Shown here: positions 51,980-57,712 of the stretch, piece by piece
Layout: each line of letters opens with the position of its first letter
How positions within the stretch are numbered: the first letter of the stretch is position 1
Source of the DNA: a virus
Taxonomy: Duplodnaviria; Caudoviricetes
IMG/VR virus record: IMGVR_UViG_3300043448_000583
Location: 1 to 57,948 of that record
Direction: 5' to 3' (one strand)
DNA: 57,948 nt
Notes under the pieces: model-generated
Told to the model about the DNA's origin: nothing
Seen by the model: the letters and a program-made list of their open reading frames with translations, nothing else
Databases searched by the model: none
Translations under genes and position numbers: made by a program

Positions 51980-51987
51980 TATTTATT
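51980..51987 (-). promoter_or_regulatory. Late promoter AATAAATA for the baseplate operon
   Basis: 20 nt upstream of ATG 51959, with an AAGGGG SD in between. Confidence 0.65.
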
Positions 51988-52015
51988 TGACTTTTAAATG
52001 TGTGTAGTTTATAAT
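51987..52015 (+). promoter_or_regulatory. Near-consensus sigma70 promoter for the gp55-gp47-gp46 operon
   Basis: TTGACT (51987-51992), 17-bp spacer, TATAAT (52010-52015); AGAGG SD at 52023-52027. Confidence 0.85.
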
Positions 52016-52035: not shown

Positions 52036-52857
52036 ATGAGTGTAAATTATCTTAATAACAAAGATTTACTAGAAGAAATTCATAAGAGTAAGAATACTTA
52101 TTCTAGCTATACTAAGCCAGAATATCATCAATACGATATTATTCTTACTGGTTTGGATAAAATTAATATAAGAACTGTGGCTGAAGCCAAGCGTAATCGT
52201 GCCAAAAGATTAGGGGACGAGGAATATCAGCGTAGGAAACAAGCAGGGGAAAAGGTCAAACAAGCCGAATGTGAAGTAGATTATAAAAAAATGATTAAAA
52301 CTGATCTAATTTTTAGAATAATGACCTACGAACATATTCCAGTGAATAAAACACGTAAGAAAAGTCAAAAAACTGAAGCAGATGGGCATGATCGAGTAAA
52401 TTTCCCACCCTTCCAACATTGGAAATTTGATGAAAACGATGAATTAATCTGCGTAGGGAAGAGTCATTGGCGGGGTGGAGTTAAAAGCGGTAAGTTCAGT
52501 AAAGATCATGGACAAATAACTAACACACTGGCCCGTATGTATATCAAATTATGCGAACGATATGCTACCCGTGGTAATGTGCGTGGCTATACCTATAACG
52601 ATGAAATGCGAGCACAGGCTATACTACAACTCACACAGGTTGGACTACAATTTAATGAAGCTAAATCGAACAACCCATTTGCTTATTTTACTGCTGCTGT
52701 TACTAACAGTTTTGTACGGATAATCAATATTGAAAAACGTAATCAAAATATTAGGGATGATATATTAGAAATGAACGATATGGCACCAAGTTATACTAGA
52801 ACTAGCAATGCTGAACACACAGCCAGCTTGAAAAGGTATGAGAGAGAAGAGGAATGA
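52036..52857 (+). CDS. gp55: Late-transcription sigma factor (T4 gp55-like)
   Basis: NYLNNKDLL, N.RGYTY.DEM, F...KS.NPFAYFT....NSF.R....EK; gp55-gp47-gp46 synteny. Confidence 0.9.
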   Translation: MSVNYLNNKDLLEEIHKSKNTYSSYTKPEYHQYDIILTGLDKINIRTVAEAKRNRAKRLGDEEYQRRKQAGEKVKQAECEVDYKKMIKTDLIFRIMTYEHIPVNKTRKKSQKTEADGHDRVNFPPFQHWKFDENDELICVGKSHWRGGVKSGKFSKDHGQITNTLARMYIKLCERYATRGNVRGYTYNDEMRAQAILQLTQVGLQFNEAKSNNPFAYFTAAVTNSFVRIINIEKRNQNIRDDILEMNDMAPSYTRTSNAEHTASLKRYEREEE

Positions 52858-53864
52858 GTTTATTTAAAAAGGCAGCATTTTTTACAGACATACACTTTGG
52901 TCTAAAATCTAATAGTCAGACACACAATCAAGACTGTGAAGATTTTGTAGATTGGTTTATTGCTACTGCCAAAAAGAATGGATGTGACACTGGATTCTTT
53001 TTAGGCGATTGGCACCATAATCGCAATAGCCTTAATATTGTTACTATGGATTATAGTCTTAGAGCTTTGGAAAAACTGGGCAAAGCATTTGACCAGTTCT
53101 TTTTCTTTCCTGGTAATCATGACTTGTATTACAAAGACAAGCGAGATATTCATAGCGTAGAGTTTGGCAAATATATCCCAGGCATCACTGTCGTACATCA
53201 ACCCATGACATTAGGTGAAGTTACTATGTGTCCTTGGCTAGTAGGTGAAGAGTGGAAAACTGTAGGACGTAAGGATGCTCGCTATATTTTTGGTCATTTT
53301 GAACTGCCCAGTTTTTATATGAATGCCATGGTACAGATGCCTGATCATGGCGAGATACAACTTGATCAGTTTAAAAAGTATGAACTTGGCCTAAGTGGGC
53401 ATTTTCATAAACGCCAAAATAAACAGAACATGCACTATATTGGTAATGCCTTTCCACATAACTACGCAGATGCTTGGGATGATGACAGAGGTATGATGAT
53501 CCTAGAGTGGGGAGGTGAACCAGAATATCACGCTTGGCCTGATCAACCTACATTCAGAACTGTCAAATTGACTCAACTTATAGATGAACAAGAACGTATA
53601 ATAAAACCTAAACAACACCTCAGAGTATTATTAGATGTAGATATCAGTTATGAAGAAAGTGGTCATATTAAAGAAGAATTTTTTAACAAATACGAGATTA
53701 GGGAGTTAACTTTGATACCTGAAAAACGTGAAGTTGAATTTAGCAGTGATTTAGAAATTAAACATTTTGAAAGTGTAGATCAAATTGTGATGAATCAACT
53801 GACCAGTGTAGAGAGTGATACTTACAATGTTAAACTATTAATGGACATTTATAATAATTTATGA
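52854..53864 (+). CDS. gp47: Recombination nuclease subunit (T4 gp47 / Mre11 / SbcD)
   Basis: Metallophosphoesterase motifs TDIHFG, LGDWHH, GNHD, GHFE and SGHFH. Confidence 0.95.
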   Translation: MSLFKKAAFFTDIHFGLKSNSQTHNQDCEDFVDWFIATAKKNGCDTGFFLGDWHHNRNSLNIVTMDYSLRALEKLGKAFDQFFFFPGNHDLYYKDKRDIHSVEFGKYIPGITVVHQPMTLGEVTMCPWLVGEEWKTVGRKDARYIFGHFELPSFYMNAMVQMPDHGEIQLDQFKKYELGLSGHFHKRQNKQNMHYIGNAFPHNYADAWDDDRGMMILEWGGEPEYHAWPDQPTFRTVKLTQLIDEQERIIKPKQHLRVLLDVDISYEESGHIKEEFFNKYEIRELTLIPEKREVEFSSDLEIKHFESVDQIVMNQLTSVESDTYNVKLLMDIYNNL

Positions 53865-55633
53865 TTAAGATACAGGATCTTAGTGTTAAGAATTTTATGA
53901 GCGTGGGTAATCAAACCCAAGCCGTCGACTTCGGCCGAGAGCAATTAACTTTAGTATTAGGCGAAAATTTAGATCAAGGAGGTGATGATTCAGGAAGCCG
54001 CAACGGCACCGGGAAAACCACAATCGTCAATGCTCTAAGTTATGCGCTCTACGGCCAAGCATTAACCAACATAAAGAAGGATAACCTTGTTAACAAGACC
54101 AATGGTAAGGCCATGTTAGTCAAGTTAAATTTTGAAAAGAATGGTGTTGAATATCGTATTGAACGTGGACGTAGGCCCAATGTGTTTAAGTTTTTTGTCA
54201 ATGGCTTAGAACAGGAAGTCATTGATGAAAGTCAGGGTGATGTAAGAGAAACACAGAAAGACTTAGATGAACTATTAGGTATGAGCCATGATATGTTTAA
54301 ACATATTGTGGCATTGAACACATACACAGAGCCATTTCTAAGCATGAGGGCTGCGGATCAACGTATGATTATTGAGCAGTTATTGGGTATTACCTTGCTC
54401 AGTGATAAAAGTGAAAGCTTAAAAAATCAAATAAAAGAAACTAAGGATAAAATAGTACAGGAATCTTCTACAATTGAAGCAGTCAAACGCAGTAATGAGC
54501 GTATTGAACAAAGCATAAACAGTTTATATTCTAAACAACGTGCTTGGCTCAGTCAGCAGGAACAAGATTTAGAAAAGATTGCTAACAGTATTTTAGAACT
54601 ACAGAGTATTGACATTGAACAGGAATTAGGACAACATAACAAATTAAAAAGTTATCTTGAACTAAGTGCTCGTATCAACAGTCTTAATAAAGAAAAGGCT
54701 ACATTAGAGACTGCTGTTAGTCAAGCTGAACGTAATGTTAAAAATTATACTCTTGAATTAAAAAAGTTAAAAAACAATAAATGTTCTAAATGTGATCAAA
54801 ACTTGCCAGGGCATATGCACGATGAACTAATAGCCGAAGCTGAAAATAATTTAGATGAAGCACAAACTTATCTTAACAATGTGGATTTTAAATTGATTAA
54901 TGTAGTAGCAGAATTAGATGAGATTGGTGATATAAATGGTAGACCTCAAACATTTTATGATACTGTAGAAGAAGCATTGAAGCATCAAAATAATCTTGCT
55001 ACATTAGAAAAAACATTATTGAATCGTAGTGAAGAAGTAGATCCTTATCAAGAACAGATAGATGAATTACGTAATACTGCCATACAGGAAATCAGTTGGG
55101 ATAATGTTAATGAACTTAATAAACTAAAAGAACATCAAGAATTTTTACTCAAGTTATTGACCAGTAAGGATAGTTTTATTCGTAAAAAGATTATTGATCA
55201 GAATTTGGCCTACTTGAATAATAGACTAAGTTATTATTTGGATCGTATGGGATTACCTCATCAAGTCAGTTTCTTAAATGATCTCAATGTAGAAATTACA
55301 CAGTTGGGTCAGGACTTGGACTTTGACAACTTAAGTAGAGGTGAACGTAATAGATTAATTTTAGGATTAAGTTGGGCATTTAGAGATGTATGGGAAAGTT
55401 TATACCAAAATATTAATCTATTGTTTATTGATGAACTTATTGACAATGGCTTGGATGCTAGTGGGGTAGAAAGTGCTCTTGCTGTATTAAAGAAAATGGC
55501 CAGAGAGCGTAATAAGAATATCTATTTGATCAGTCATAAGGATGAATTAGTTGGTCGTGTAAACAACGTATTAAAAGTTATTAAGGAAAATGGTTATACC
55601 AGTTATGCTAACGACTTGGAGATCTTGGGGTGA
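53861..55633 (+). CDS. gp46: Recombination ATPase subunit (T4 gp46 / Rad50 / SbcC)
   Basis: KNFMSVGN, Walker A NGTGKTT, coiled coil with CSKC zinc hook, signature LSRGE, Walker B LLFIDE, ISH. Confidence 0.96.
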   Translation: MIKIQDLSVKNFMSVGNQTQAVDFGREQLTLVLGENLDQGGDDSGSRNGTGKTTIVNALSYALYGQALTNIKKDNLVNKTNGKAMLVKLNFEKNGVEYRIERGRRPNVFKFFVNGLEQEVIDESQGDVRETQKDLDELLGMSHDMFKHIVALNTYTEPFLSMRAADQRMIIEQLLGITLLSDKSESLKNQIKETKDKIVQESSTIEAVKRSNERIEQSINSLYSKQRAWLSQQEQDLEKIANSILELQSIDIEQELGQHNKLKSYLELSARINSLNKEKATLETAVSQAERNVKNYTLELKKLKNNKCSKCDQNLPGHMHDELIAEAENNLDEAQTYLNNVDFKLINVVAELDEIGDINGRPQTFYDTVEEALKHQNNLATLEKTLLNRSEEVDPYQEQIDELRNTAIQEISWDNVNELNKLKEHQEFLLKLLTSKDSFIRKKIIDQNLAYLNNRLSYYLDRMGLPHQVSFLNDLNVEITQLGQDLDFDNLSRGERNRLILGLSWAFRDVWESLYQNINLLFIDELIDNGLDASGVESALAVLKKMARERNKNIYLISHKDELVGRVNNVLKVIKENGYTSYANDLEILG

Positions 55634-55890
55634 AACCTCCACGTGATGAAGAACTCCATGATCGTTTAATGGATGCATTTAGGCGATATTTTAAGGCAAA
55701 TCAAGAATGGGTTGAGAAAGGCACACGTAGGGCAGGATTAAAAACTAGAAAATTACTCAGTGAAATTAGGCATATTGCTATAGAACGTCGTGAAGTAATC
55801 ATGCAATGGCGTTATGAAATAGACAGAGAAAAGGCAGAACGTAAGGCACTTCAAAAGGCAAAGAAGAAAAAGGTTGATGACAATATATAA
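55630..55890 (+). CDS. Small basic protein resembling the histone H1-like Hc1 family
   Basis: 86 aa; EKGTRRAGLKTRKLLSEI resembles the Hc1 G-N-K-A-A-G-x-R-A-R-K pattern; Lys-rich tail; GTGA overlap with gp46. Confidence 0.5.
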   Translation: MKPPRDEELHDRLMDAFRRYFKANQEWVEKGTRRAGLKTRKLLSEIRHIAIERREVIMQWRYEIDREKAERKALQKAKKKKVDDNI

Positions 55891-55893
55891 TTG

Positions 55894-56331
55894 ATGTCAT
55901 GGACTTATCAAGGCCAATTAGTTACAGAAATTCCAGAAGAGTATATAGGCTTCGTTTATCTTATTACGAATACACAGTCAGGCCGTATGTATATAGGCAA
56001 AAAGTTGGCACAGTTTGCAAAAACAAGTTACAAAATAGTAAAACTAAAAAATGGCACTAAAAAACGTAAACGAGTCAGAGGCAAAGTAGCAAGTGATTGG
56101 CAAGATTATTATGGCAGCAATGATGAACTCAAGGCAGATGTACAGAGATTAGGCACTGAAAATTTCACAAGAGAAATATTATATTATTGTACTAGCAAAT
56201 CAGAATGTAGTTATGTTGAGGCAAGAGAACAATTTTCAAGGCGTGTATTAGAATCAGACGATTATTATAACGGGCACATTCAGGTCAGAGTTCACGGCAA
56301 ACATATCAAAGGCAAAATTTTACACGGTTAA
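55894..56331 (+). CDS. Stand-alone GIY-YIG endonuclease with a basic insertion
   Basis: GFVYLITN...YIGKK, YYGS, F.REIL, catalytic E in YVE, YYN. KLKNGTKKRKRVRGK insert; no C-terminal NUMOD/HTH domain. ATG at 55894 (TTG 55891 is the alternative). Confidence 0.88.
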   Translation: MSWTYQGQLVTEIPEEYIGFVYLITNTQSGRMYIGKKLAQFAKTSYKIVKLKNGTKKRKRVRGKVASDWQDYYGSNDELKADVQRLGTENFTREILYYCTSKSECSYVEAREQFSRRVLESDDYYNGHIQVRVHGKHIKGKILHG

Positions 56332-56673
56332 GGCTTGGCACTGGCCAATTTCAAGTGCCCCTATACCTGGACCCAGAGTCGCAGGGACGGAAAACTCACC
56401 GCCGTAGTGAGTACTCAGCCACTACCCGCAAGGATGACGATCACTTAAATGCCGTGATTTGGCTGTTTGAACAGAATTCAAGGCTAAAAGACGCTGAATA
56501 AGCACGTTAGTATATGGTGATAGCATACTGTATAGTAACCGCCGTTGTTGAAGACTGTGCTCGAGGTACCGGACAACCGCCTCTGTAATGCACTAATGCT
56601 ATGGACTGAGCAACTCGCATAATGTTCCTTTCGCCCTCGGATGGGCGAAGAGTGACGTCACAATCTGCATAAT
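56332..56673 (+). ncRNA. Candidate large structured non-coding RNA (unclassified)
   Basis: No ORF of 60 aa or more; 148/300 G+C in 56341-56640 against AT-rich flanks; at least ten consecutive or nested helices and a GCAA tetraloop. Boundaries and transcription are unproven. Confidence 0.65.
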
Positions 56674-56676
56674 ATT

Positions 56677-56719
56677 AAGAAAAACAAAAAGCTTTTTAGG
56701 ACGATAAGTCCTAAAAAAG
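56677..56719 (-). terminator. Hairpin with a U-rich tail on the minus strand (probable minus-strand terminator)
   Basis: Perfect 10-bp stem TTTTTAGGAC-GATAA-GTCCTAAAAA (56693-56717). It is followed by GCTTTTTGTTTTTC only on the minus strand. Confidence 0.5.
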
Positions 56720-56743
56720 AGTGAGCGTAGCGCACTCTCAATT

Positions 56744-56751
56744 AATAAATA
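56744..56751 (+). promoter_or_regulatory. Late promoter AATAAATA, 4 nt before ATG 56756
   Basis: ATAAATACCATATG is identical to the context at the gp14 start (13076-13089). Confidence 0.7.
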
Positions 56752-56755
56752 CCAT

Positions 56756-57712
56756 ATGAAAATTTATGAGATCGTCTCTGAAGAAAAAGTGGATGAAGGA
56801 GTACTTGGATTAGCTGCTCGTGGACTAGCTAGATTGGTTCGACCTGTTGGTAGTAAAGTTGACCCTTCTAGTGTGGCTAGTCAATATGGTACAAGATTTG
56901 GTGCTATGCGTGGTGCTGCTCGTACTAGTGCTCACTTGAAAAACATTCCACTTATAGGCAATACTCTACATAGATGGAATATTAAAAATTCTGTAAGAGC
57001 TTTTGAATTAGCTAAAATTGAAGTAGCTAGGACTATTACTAATAATTTGGGTAAAGATTTAATGGACATAGTTTTGTTATTCAATTTAGGTGATGCTGTA
57101 GTAAACTATTTTGCTGCTAAAGAAGTTTTGGATAATGCTAACCCACCTGTACCTGACTATGAAGTAAAATTAAATGAGCTAAGAGGAATATTGGTTGCAC
57201 AAATTCTAGCTCCAGGTGTAGCTGTAGGTATGACTAAGGTTGCTGGTGGTTTGGCAAAAATTATCCCTCACCTAATGACCAAAATACCTGTCAAGTCTGT
57301 GGCCAAATCAGGAGCCAGTACAAAATTAGTTATTGATGCTCTTCAAAAAGTTAGTGCTGCCAGTCTAGTTGGATTATTGACTACAGAAAAAGGTATAAAA
57401 TTAGTCACTGATTGGTTAGGTACCAGTGTCACACAAGGATTAGGTGCAGCCACTACGATGTTATGGAATTTATGTGAATTTTTATATGCCGGACTTCAAG
57501 TAGCAGGTGTAATACCTAAAGATGATAATCAACAAGCAGATAAAGAAAAATCAGCTGCTGGATCAAAAGAAAAAGATAAGGCAGGAAGTTCAACCCCTAG
57601 TGCCAGTGATATAGGCGGTGCTGTAGCTCAAGGTATGACCAGTGGTGGATCTGTGGATGATATAGCTGCTAATTTTATAGCTGGTCAATTGGGTAAGAGT
57701 TTATCAAAGTAA
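56756..57712 (+). CDS. Ala/Gly/Leu-rich helical late protein, putative capsid-internal (ejected) protein
   Basis: 318 aa; N-terminus MKIYEIVSEEKVDEG resembles a cleavable targeting leader; several hydrophobic helices; late promoter. Confidence 0.45.
   Translation: MKIYEIVSEEKVDEGVLGLAARGLARLVRPVGSKVDPSSVASQYGTRFGAMRGAARTSAHLKNIPLIGNTLHRWNIKNSVRAFELAKIEVARTITNNLGKDLMDIVLLFNLGDAVVNYFAAKEVLDNANPPVPDYEVKLNELRGILVAQILAPGVAVGMTKVAGGLAKIIPHLMTKIPVKSVAKSGASTKLVIDALQKVSAASLVGLLTTEKGIKLVTDWLGTSVTQGLGAATTMLWNLCEFLYAGLQVAGVIPKDDNQQADKEKSAAGSKEKDKAGSSTPSASDIGGAVAQGMTSGGSVDDIAANFIAGQLGKSLSK

What the first reader, a model, noticed from the sequence alone, without database searches (positions are those of the whole stretch)
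56332..56673. Large, densely structured non-coding element directly after a stand-alone GIY-YIG nuclease gene
Seen: this is the only long non-coding stretch in a gene-dense 58 kb. It starts right after the GIY-YIG stop and is ~49% G+C. Pairings: GGCACT/AGTGCC (56337-42/56354-59); CCTG-GAC/GTC-G-CAGG (56366-85); ACTCAC/GTGAGT (56394-99/56407-12), whose loop CCGT could pseudoknot with ACGG (56387-90); CAGCCA/TGGCTG (56416-21/56460-65), enclosing CC-GCAA-GG and ATCAC/GTGAT; TTGAA/TTCAA (56467-81); GCTAA/TTAGT (56483-87/56507-11); long-range ATAGCAT/ATGCTAT (56520-26/56596-602), enclosing GTGC/GCAC, GAGG/CCTC and CGG-ACAA-CCG; and TTCGCCC/GGGCGAA (56630-49). The GNRA loop and G.U pairs favour the plus strand. 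I could not match it to tRNA, tmRNA, RNase P, or group I/II intron cores. Inference: a multi-domain phage ncRNA at the end of the gp55-47-46 operon, possibly a ribozyme, a scaffold or a nuclease partner.
Basis: partly seen in the sequence, partly recalled or inferred. Interest (0 to 1): 0.88.

Follow-up and report, generated by a model that had tools for sequence, protein, structure and literature searches.

The report
Full-length Polynucleobacter-1 twin-box phage RNA
The gene-free stretch behind a small nuclease gene of this uncultured giant T4-like freshwater phage encodes a real, knotted non-coding RNA of about 400 bases; its first third is an orphan motif catalogued in 2010, and the rest carries one short word twice for a reader that is still unknown.

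Summary
Window 56332-56755 is the only long ORF-free stretch, with 49% G+C against 34% for the window.

Bases 56333-56468 (+) are a full-length match to Rfam RF01718, the Polynucleobacter-1 RNA (106 bits, cut-off 37). So the element is not an unknown family.

The catalogued model covers only the first third. In 47 non-redundant phage copies the conserved, covarying RNA runs on to about 56738. It adds five helices and two pseudoknots (92% of cells paired against 78.6% shuffled; 0 of 500 shuffles reach it).

Two 22-nt twin units (56603-23 and 56652-73) flank a hairpin. They carry the same 7-letter word, which changes in step between phages.

The RNA closes the sigma-55/gp47/gp46/GIY-YIG operon. 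It is not a leader of the next gene.

Function is unknown. No complement of the word turned up in cis, in four phage records or in three bacterial genomes. Identical nucleases go with different words.

This scan found the same RNA before on other DNA.

No paper in the searched library extends the motif beyond its 2010 listing.

The parts
51987..52015 (+). Sigma-70-like promoter TTGACT-17-TATAAT in front of the operon that ends with the RNA
   Evidence: 11 of 12 consensus letters. This is a consensus match only. The genes from 52036 to 56331 abut or overlap.
55891..56331 (+). Small stand-alone GIY-YIG nuclease gene (146 aa, catalytic domain only). Its stop lies 1 nt before the RNA.
   Evidence: PF19835 SegE_GIY-YIG, E 7.6e-34; phrog_447. 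AF2 model pLDDT 81.9; best meaningful fold hits are the I-TevI catalytic domain, prob 0.95-0.97, E 0.18. A homologue lies upstream of the RNA in 78 of 89 loci.
56333..56468 (+). Domain 1: Polynucleobacter-1 RNA (Rfam RF01718), helices P1-P6
   Evidence: 106.3 bits against a gathering score of 37, model positions 1-141 of 141. P1, P3, P4 and P6 have changes on both sides.
56469..56492 (+). Linker with the conserved single-stranded AAGGCNAAAAGA (56481-56492)
   Evidence: Nearly invariant columns in A1. RNAalifold pairs GGC with the P3 loop, without two-sided changes.
56493..56602 (+). Domain 2, not in Rfam. It holds a small hairpin (about 56493-56502), a long hairpin 56507-56537, pseudoknot 56520-26 with 56596-602, pseudoknot 56544-47 with 56574-77, helix 56557-60 with 56590-93, and helix 56563-67 with 56579-83.
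   Evidence: Conserved at 72-94% identity in 75 of 89 loci. Helices 7-13 are 86-100% paired, and 26 of their 33 pairs have changes on both sides. Mutual information.
56603..56623 (+). Twin unit R1: GGAC, spacer, CAA, CTC, then the box GCATAAT (56617-56623)
56630..56649 (+). Hairpin between the twin units (TTCGCCC / GGGCGAA)
   Evidence: Present in every relative, with C-G, U-A and A-U variants. Folded.
56652..56673 (+). Twin unit R2: GTGAC, spacer, CAA, TCT, then the box GCATAAT (56667-56673), 50 nt after its twin
   Evidence: The 7-mers are identical in 42 of 47 aligned rows. Of the other five, three are misaligned, one has R1 deleted and one differs by a single letter. The best mutual-information partner of each variable position is its twin.
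56693..56738 (+). Two 3' hairpins (56693-56717 and 56718-56738). The second carries the AGCGTAGC motif that recurs in phage and bacterial relatives. Probable 3' end of the RNA.
   Evidence: The 56600-56745 stretch folds with z = -3.39. The motif is seen in types A, B and C and in bacterial copies. Terminator-like only on the minus strand.
56744..56751 (+). AATAAATA box 5 nt before the ATG of the next gene (56756-57712). It marks where the next, separate unit begins.
   Evidence: Read. The same box sits 4-9 nt before the ATG in about 12 of 46 distinct downstream genes. That it is a T4-type late promoter is recalled, not tested.

Best explanation
SHOWN. Window 56333 to about 56738 (+) is the full-length form of the Polynucleobacter-1 RNA. 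It is a non-coding RNA of about 400 nt with these parts:
- The catalogued 136-nt 5' domain.
- An uncatalogued second domain with two pseudoknots.
- Two twin units on either side of a hairpin.
- Two 3' hairpins.

It is the last element of the late-sigma/gp47/gp46/small-nuclease operon of a large family of uncultured freshwater T4-like phages. It is not the leader of the next gene.

INFERRED. It acts as an RNA in trans. The ornate 5' domains are an exchangeable scaffold: three different 5' architectures carry the same 3' module. The working part is the twin-box module. That module holds out two identical single-stranded words of 7-9 nt, each behind xAA-CUC or xAA-UCU, to one common reader.

The two words may be exposed by cuts in front of each box, which would give two sibling RNAs with the same 5' word.
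For: Identity:
- RF01718 at 106.3 bits, full model.

Real RNA structure on the plus strand:
- 47 non-redundant copies give 92.0% paired cells against 78.6% shuffled.
- 49 of 70 pairs have changes on both sides.
- The covariation score is 0.393, against 0.153 for shuffles and 0.04-0.08 for slid partners. No shuffle of 500 reaches it.
- G-U variants are frequent.

Not coding:
- Segment lengths differ by 1-2 nt between relatives.
- ARAGORN finds no tRNA or tmRNA.

Spread:
- 89 of 100 pattern hits in viral contigs are copies.
- The second half is conserved in 75 of 89.

Operon end, not a leader:
- The flanking genes are conserved (gp46 in 80 of 89), but the next plus-strand gene is not (2 of 89).
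- In 11 loci a convergent baseplate-cluster gene ends right behind the RNA.
- Downstream genes are hypervariable, and several have their own AATAAATA box.

Twin words:
- They are identical in 42 of 47 rows, with 12 distinct words in the loci scanned.
- Each variable position's best partner is its twin 50 nt on, with mutual information 0.52-1.00.

The module is shared by types lacking RF01718 (L233, L284, L237, L300) and by bacterial copies with other words.

Contigs from RNA libraries of two studies cover the nuclease gene and the RNA.
Against: - There is no direct evidence for transcript ends, processing, stability or any partner.
- The runs laid were assembled contigs, which cannot show starts, ends or strand, and DNA may be present in them.
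- Single-sequence folding is not better than shuffles for the whole element.
- A 7-nt word is too short to find a target by search, so the seed idea is untested rather than supported.
- Every search for a longer complement failed.
- The conserved CUC/UCU difference between the units has no explanation in this model.
- Tight linkage to small nucleases could still mean a protein partner.
Confidence: 0.6

Rival explanations
1. The RNA is the partner (scaffold, guide or regulator) of the small nuclease encoded just upstream, and the two form a ribonucleoprotein.
For: - The nuclease stop lies 0-31 nt before the RNA.
- A GIY-YIG homologue is upstream in 78 of 89 RNA loci.
- By my reading, about 61 of 75 nuclease-anchored loci have the RNA directly behind.
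- In the L036 clade an unrelated PDDEXK nuclease sits in the same place (PF24608, E 9.7e-28).
- The nuclease is a bare catalytic domain with a long basic beta-hairpin.
Against: - All phage loci share one syntenic block, so linkage may be inheritance.
- 6 of 75 loci have another gene in between, and 6 of 75 show no RNA in the 1-2.5 kb held.
- 12 bacterial copies have no adjacent nuclease; they sit beside DUF6641 and, in two loci, a short tyrosine recombinase.
- L068 and L077 have 100% identical nucleases but different twin words.
- The PDDEXK protein hits a family labelled Holliday-junction resolvase. This fits a recombination role beside gp46/47 that needs no RNA.
Confidence: 0.2
2. The RNA is a self-processing ribozyme, and the twin units are its two cleavage or ligation sites. 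This would release the roughly 50-nt hairpin segment or give two products with the same end.
For: - Invariant stretches in a pseudoknotted core (CCTGGAC and CAGGGAYGGAAA are invariant in 47 rows).
- Two sites with the same flanks and word.
Against: - No internal guide complementary to the word exists.
- No ribozyme family hit at E up to 10.
- Types B and C keep the twin module without domain 1.
- No joint across the segment appeared in RNA contigs, but contigs drop rare forms.
Confidence: 0.1
3. The twin units are read as DNA, as iteron-like or crossover-like repeats for a replication or recombination protein. The RNA structure is a separate or priming function.
For: - Repeats that must match whatever their sequence are typical of recombinase overlap regions and iterons (established knowledge, recalled).
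- Short tyrosine recombinase genes lie 0.85-1.0 kb downstream in 2 bacterial loci (PF00589, E 1.5e-24 and 2.2e-25).
- The RNA sits beside the phage recombination genes.
Against: - The region is G+C-rich, not an AT-rich unwinding element.
- The structure is strand-specific with G-U pairs.
- The 47-79 bp between the sites is too short for duplex looping (inference).
- No further copies of the unit exist in four phage records.
- No recombinase is present in the phage loci.
Confidence: 0.08
4. It is a cis element of the operon only: a 3' UTR that stabilises or terminates the nuclease mRNA and shields it from the convergent late genes.
For: - It sits at the operon end, followed by hairpins.
- UUCG-type hairpins occur in relatives.
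Against: - About 400 nt with invariant motifs, two pseudoknots and twin words is far more than a stabiliser needs (inference).
- Bacterial copies stand between divergent genes, not behind an operon.
Confidence: 0.07
5. It is a cis-regulatory leader or riboswitch of the downstream gene. The 2010 table rated this 'probably cis-regulatory'.
For: Table 1 of PMC2864571 rates the motif RNA 'y', cis-reg 'y', switch '?' (passages seen). In the window a plus-strand gene follows 18 nt after the last hairpin.
Against: - In 11 loci the next gene is convergent.
- The downstream genes are unrelated to each other apart from a short N-terminal motif.
- An AATAAATA box lies between the RNA and the ATG.
Confidence: 0.03

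Closest known systems
Polynucleobacter-1 RNA motif (Rfam RF01718; Weinberg et al. 2010, PMC2864571; table row and passages seen)
   Same: Window 56333-56468 matches the whole 141-position model at 106 bits. The habitat also agrees: the paper lists fresh water/estuary, and the RNA runs that hold the stretch are labelled freshwater.
   Different: - The model stops after the first third.
- The paper lists Burkholderiales and rates the motif probably cis-regulatory. Here it is carried by T4-like phages (89 viral contigs), runs on for about 270 more conserved nt and is not a leader.
- The paper's supplementary files, which hold its gene contexts, could not be opened.
Large ornate orphan RNAs of bacteria and phages (GOLLD, ROOL, HEARO; recalled, not compared beyond Rfam)
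   Same: Several hundred nt, many helices and pseudoknots, often phage-borne, found by comparative genomics, function unknown or only recently found.
   Different: No Rfam hit to any of them at E up to 10. None is known to me to carry twin words.
T4 segB, a free-standing GIY-YIG gene inside the tRNA gene cluster (PMC2330249; listing and abstract start seen)
   Same: A small GIY-YIG nuclease gene sits next to structured RNA genes in a T4-type phage. This suggests conserved RNA genes may simply be good neighbours or targets for such genes.
   Different: The nuclease here is not sporadic. It is present in 78 of 89 loci and is more conserved than gp46 (for example 68% against 52-54% identity in L019 and L003).
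Type III toxin-antitoxin pairs such as ToxIN (recalled)
   Same: A nuclease gene sits beside an RNA with direct repeats that carry the nuclease's own cut sites.
   Different: Here there are only two partial units in a 400-nt RNA, the RNA lies downstream, the nucleases are DNA-type folds, and it is a core syntenic gene of a lytic phage. Nothing was tested.

Membership tests
Polynucleobacter-1 RNA (RF01718) | Score at or above Rfam's gathering threshold over the whole model | tested here: met
   106.3 bits against 37, model positions 1-141 of 141, E 4.5e-22.
Polynucleobacter-1 RNA (RF01718) | The model's helices are kept by compensatory changes in relatives | tested here: met
   Helices 1, 3, 4 and 6 have 5, 6, 4 and 5 pairs with two-sided changes. 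Helix 2 is invariant.
Polynucleobacter-1 RNA (RF01718) | Position in a 5' UTR (the 2010 rating 'probably cis-regulatory') | tested here: not met
   The next gene is convergent in 11 loci, the downstream genes are unrelated, and the next gene has its own AATAAATA box. This is a tentative annotation, not a defining trait of the Rfam model.
Polynucleobacter-1 RNA (RF01718) | Length and extent as catalogued (141 positions) | tested here: not met
   Conservation and covariation continue for about 270 nt more.
Group I / group II introns, RNase P, tRNA, tmRNA, known ribozymes | Match to the family's covariance model or to ARAGORN | tested here: not met
   Apart from RF01718, nothing reaches its family's gathering score among the four matches at E up to 10 in 601 nt; the other three are RAGATH-19, Spd-sr07 and an L31 leader. 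ARAGORN finds 0 genes.
CRISPR repeat-like decoy (lead from a recalled likeness of the bacterial R2 unit) | Match to a CRISPR-DR model | tested here: not met
   No CRISPR-DR hit at E up to 5 in L221, L162 and L109. Rfam's set of repeats is small.
RNA-guided nuclease systems | A guide segment with a complementary target, and a nuclease that needs the RNA | tested here: inconclusive
   No 12-14-nt complement other than the RNA's own sites in 4 phage records and 3 bacterial genomes. A 7-nt word cannot be searched. Dependence on the RNA is not testable with these tools.
GIY-YIG nucleases (for the neighbouring gene) | GIY...YIG motifs with conserved Arg, Glu and Asn, and the alpha/beta fold | tested here: met
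   PF19835, E 7.6e-34. 46 invariant columns include G19, Y22, Y33, G35, R93, E109 and N126. Fold nearest to the I-TevI catalytic domain, weakly. No solved relative by sequence.

The most novel reading that the evidence does not exclude
The twin-box module is a programmable specificity element. Two identical 7-9-nt guides on a swappable RNA scaffold direct a small DNA-breaking or DNA-joining enzyme (GIY-YIG, PDDEXK, or a short tyrosine recombinase in bacteria) to a matching site. That would be a new kind of RNA-directed DNA transaction in giant T4-like phages and bacterial islands.
Probability: 0.05. Interest if true: 0.9.

Novelty: new variant of a known kind. Interest (0 to 1): 0.55.

Why it matters
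If the reading holds, an orphan motif filed in 2010 as a probable leader of Burkholderiales is really the first third of a 400-nt knotted RNA. That RNA is a near-universal gene of a large group of uncultured giant freshwater T4-like phages: more than 590 viral stretches carry the linked nuclease.

Twin words that must match whatever they say are rare in RNA biology. They point to a reader that tests identity.

For databases, the Rfam model should be extended. Two relatives without domain 1 need models of their own.

Tried and rejected
Searches and tests that gave nothing, or that I rejected:

- blastn of 56300-56760 against deposited phage genomes: no match.
- Relatives of the 318-aa downstream protein in viral contigs: none. 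It also has no Pfam or PHROG family.
- Minimum-free-energy z-scores of the whole element and of its second half are not significant.
- A helix between the two spacers of the twin units is rejected: own pairs average 4.30 bp and cross pairs 4.27 bp.
- An internal guide for the word: none. The only recurrent site (about +130) is a strand of helix P4 and fails in the window's clade.
- Complement of the word or of the longer unit:
  - In the window, 4 complement 7-mers against 6.8 expected, and no 10-mer.
  - In four phage records, only the RNA's own two sites plus chance-level degenerate hits.
  - In three bacterial genomes, only own sites at 0 mismatches that fit the genome's own word, with totals like the controls.
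- Translational bypass between matched words: I considered it because the boxes lie 50 nt apart. I dropped it because no frame runs into R1, and the bacterial words hold no stop.
- CRISPR-repeat likeness: no support.
- The 86-aa basic protein against DUF6641: no likeness. Its only Pfam hit has E 0.11.
- PDB by sequence for the nuclease: nothing relevant. Foldseek: nothing at E 0.001 or better.
- RNA runs: only assembled contigs were served. They cover 55900-56751 in three runs of one study, and 56032-56189 plus 56401-56471 in one run of a second study. They show no joints, starts or ends. The lack of cover beyond 56787 means nothing.
- L026 has an unrelated 144-codon frame upstream with no Pfam family.
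- One call failed on a mistyped search term and was repeated correctly.
- Supplementary files of PMC2864571 were not opened. They may hold the gene contexts behind its 'cis-reg y' rating.

Full report
WHAT IS THERE

The window is an IMG/VR virus record of 57,948 bases that CheckV rates 16% complete.

The genes from 52036 to 56331 abut or overlap on the plus strand. In order they are:
- A late sigma factor (phrog_12791, E 2.6e-75).
- An SbcD-like gp47.
- An SbcC-like gp46 (Pfam).
- An 86-aa basic protein without a family.
- A 146-aa GIY-YIG nuclease (PF19835, E 7.6e-34).

A near-consensus TTGACT-17-TATAAT lies at 51987-52015.

With frames of 90 aa or more masked, 56332-56755 is the only long uncovered stretch. 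Its G+C is 49% against 34% for the window.

THE KNOWN PART

A scan of the whole window against Rfam gives one match at gathering level. It is RF01718, the Polynucleobacter-1 RNA, at 56333-56468 (+): 106.3 bits against a cut-off of 37, over all 141 model positions (alignment).

The 2010 paper that defined the motif lists it as RNA 'y', cis-regulatory 'y', switch '?', with taxa 'Burkholderiales, fresh water/estuary'. I saw the table row and legend passages. The supplementary files were not opened.

Full-text searches found no later work on it:
- 'Polynucleobacter-1' returned 1 paper.
- 'RF01718' returned 3 papers, two of them genome reports by their titles.
- 'Polynucleobacter' + 'RNA motif' + 'phage' returned 1 paper.
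- GIY-YIG / structured RNA / T4-like returned 60 papers with two of the three terms. None of the 15 listed concerns it, judging by titles and abstract starts.

THE NEW PART

A pattern taken from two invariant stretches of domain 1 found 100 stretches in IMG/VR. Of these, 89 are true copies by nhmmer.

The window's second half (56469-56760) aligns at 70-94% identity, in the same place, in 75 of the 89.

Of the 90 copies (window included), 83 had the full 420 nt. They fall into 47 clusters at 95% identity, and one sequence per cluster was aligned (A1).

I wrote a 70-pair structure from Rfam's helices plus the pairs with the highest mutual information and counted it on A1:
- 92.0% of cells are standard pairs, against 78.6% in shuffles.
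- 49 of 70 pairs have changes on both sides, against 33.2 in shuffles.
- The covariation score is 0.393, against 0.153 for shuffles and 0.04-0.08 for slid partners.
- No shuffle of 500 reaches any of these measures.

The structure was partly derived from these same sequences, which favours it. However, the seven domain-2 helices have 26 of 33 pairs with two-sided changes.

Domain 2 holds two pseudoknots:
- The loop of the long hairpin (56520-26) pairs with 56596-602.
- GTTG (56544-47) pairs with CAAC (56574-77).

Segment lengths between anchors differ by one or two bases among relatives, so no reading frame is kept.

THE TWIN UNITS

Two units flank the hairpin 56630-49:
- R1, 56603-23: GGAC-spacer-CAA-CTC-GCATAAT.
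- R2, 56652-73: GTGAC-spacer-CAA-TCT-GCATAAT.

By alignment column the two 7-mers are identical in 42 of 47 rows. The five exceptions are:
- One row with R1 deleted (L028).
- Three misaligned rows that carry twins at other offsets (L059, L019, and L036 with 6 letters, and A1 read by eye).
- One true single mismatch (L089).

Twelve different words were seen in the loci a strict detector caught: 107 of 301 sequences scanned, with 2 hits for the scrambled control context.

Each variable position's best mutual-information partner is its twin 50 nt downstream (0.52-1.00). For 56617 the next best is 0.27.

The three letters before CTC/TCT and the GTGAC-type head also tend to match. The CTC-versus-TCT difference is constant from phages to bacteria.

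WHO READS THE WORD

I tested several candidates. None fits.
- In cis: no complementary segment in the RNA or 500 nt around it.
- A helix between the two spacers: no better than cross-pairings.
- In the genome: the 12-nt complement of a unit occurs only at the RNA's own two sites in four phage records of 164-400 kb, apart from chance-level degenerate hits. The 14-nt complement does likewise in three bacterial genomes.
- The nuclease: L068 and L077 encode 100% identical GIY-YIG proteins over the aligned length but carry GGATAAT and AGATAAT. Their RNAs are alike in domain 1 and differ in domain 2. So the RNA gene is a mosaic, and the nuclease's sequence does not set the word.

CONTEXT

By tblastn, homologues of the window's proteins lie upstream of the RNA in the 89 loci as follows:

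| Protein | Loci of 89 |
|---|---|
| gp46 | 80 |
| GIY-YIG nuclease | 78 |
| gp47 | 64 |
| Late sigma factor | 46 |

Many loci are cut by contig ends.

Seven loci of one clade have a 176-codon frame in place of the GIY-YIG gene. L036's copy is a PDDEXK endonuclease (PF24608, E 9.7e-28; phrog_244, labelled RusA-like resolvase). The other six were not scanned.

The next plus-strand gene is conserved in only 2 of 89. A convergent small gene of the baseplate cluster lies 0.44-3 kb downstream; its neighbour in L057 is PF12322. In 11 loci that gene ends directly behind the RNA. So the RNA closes a transcription unit and is not a leader.

Anchoring on the nuclease instead gave 593 viral stretches that encode a relative, of which the best 80 were kept. 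Of the 75 with 200 nt or more downstream, nhmmer places the RNA right behind the gene in 49. My reading of the other 26:
- 12 have a divergent RNA in the same place: type B such as L233, type C such as L284, and two with a divergent domain 1.
- 2 have type C twin boxes about 0.6 kb on.
- 6 have another gene in between.
- 6 show nothing in the DNA held.

Types B and C lack an RF01718-scoring domain (1 of the 15 loci scanned reaches the threshold). They keep the twin module and a 3' hairpin with the AGCGTAGC motif.

BACTERIAL COPIES

Two are phage-like copies on 1.5-2 kb contigs of a Bacteroidetes bin.

Twelve are a distinct subtype in betaproteobacterial genomes and a few MAGs. RF01718 scores 85-96 bits in the three I scanned. 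Nine of them show twin units with other words; L127 and L129 diverge from the RNA after about 120-190 nt, and L178 runs off its contig.

Their neighbours are a divergently oriented DUF6641 protein and, in L114 and L168, a 192-204-aa tyrosine recombinase 0.85-1.0 kb downstream. There is no nuclease next door.

EXPRESSION

Five RNA-library runs of two studies hold part of the stretch. Contigs of four of them were laid; they cover the nuclease gene and the RNA at 90-99% identity. These are contigs, so they show presence in RNA libraries and nothing about ends, strand or level.

READING

Settled:
- This is a real plus-strand structured non-coding RNA.
- It is the full-length form of a catalogued orphan motif.
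- It is carried by a large group of uncultured freshwater T4-like phages.
- It lies at an operon end.
- It has a twin-word module that is the most widely shared part of the family.

Not settled: what it does.

I commit, at about one chance in four, to a trans-acting RNA whose two identical words meet one nucleic-acid reader by short pairing, perhaps after cuts in front of each box.

The nuclease-partner idea (about 0.2) keeps the non-homologous nuclease swap in its favour. The nuclease may instead belong with gp46/47 as a structure-specific recombination enzyme (inference).

PRIOR NOTES OF THIS SCAN

One search shows eight earlier follow-ups on other genomes that reached the same core reading: a full-length Polynucleobacter-1 'twin-box' phage RNA with an unknown reader. 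I reached the match, the extension and the twin words before opening those notes.

- The nuclease-identity test.
- The whole-record complement searches.
- The rejected spacer helix.
- The leader test.
- The PDDEXK label.

Noticed in passing
window 56744-57712; first plus-strand gene after the RNA in L002-L101: The genes behind the RNA differ widely (81-493 aa, 46 distinct N-termini). Most begin with the same short motif, M-K/R-I/V/L-x-E/D-I/L, often followed by an acidic L/V-D-E, and about a dozen have AATAAATA 4-9 nt before the ATG. This looks like a hypervariable late-gene locus with a shared N-terminal tag. It is reminiscent of the capsid-targeting peptide of T4 internal proteins (recalled, not tested). 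Bacterial loci carry proteins starting M-R-I-S/N-E-I near the RNA too.
   Followed up: partly
L036:8259-8777 (and the same place in L039, L046, L083, L014, L037, L042): One phage clade has a PDDEXK endonuclease (PF24608; phrog_244, labelled RusA-like Holliday-junction resolvase) where the others have the GIY-YIG gene, between gp46 and the RNA. Only L036's copy was scanned.
   Followed up: partly
L068 and L077 (viral contigs): The GIY-YIG proteins are identical and domain 1 is near-identical, but domain 2 and the twin word differ. A recombination break therefore lies inside the RNA gene.
   Followed up: partly
L028:11193-11612: A natural deletion removes most of domain 2, unit R1 and the hairpin but keeps R2 and the 3' hairpins. 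The contig may represent a defective or variant RNA.
   Followed up: no
window 55630-55890: An 86-aa lysine/arginine-rich protein gene lies between gp46 and the nuclease gene. It is conserved in 36 of 89 loci and has no Pfam or PHROG family. It is unlike the bacterial DUF6641 neighbour.
   Followed up: partly
L114, L155, L168, L162, L180, L213, L217, L221 (bacterial genome contigs): The bacterial subtype of the RNA stands between a divergent DUF6641 gene and, in L114 and L168, a 192-204-aa tyrosine recombinase made of the catalytic domain only. L180 and L127 are two loci of one Limnohabitans genome; L127's copy diverges after about 190 nt.
   Followed up: partly
window 56692-56737, minus strand: The two hairpins after the RNA score as intrinsic terminators only on the minus strand, where T runs follow them. 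They could stop read-through from the convergent late genes.
   Followed up: no
window 55891-56331 (protein residues 40-66): The AF2 model of the GIY-YIG protein has a long two-stranded beta-hairpin carrying the basic run K-L-K-N-G-T-K-K-R-K-R-V-R-G-K inserted in the catalytic domain. This is a possible nucleic-acid-binding arm.
   Followed up: no
L278, L285, L257, L282 (viral contigs): In these relatives the GIY-YIG gene is followed at once by a 287-383-aa membrane-like protein (weak Tetraspanin-family hits below the cut-off). No RNA is found in the 2-2.5 kb held.
   Followed up: partly
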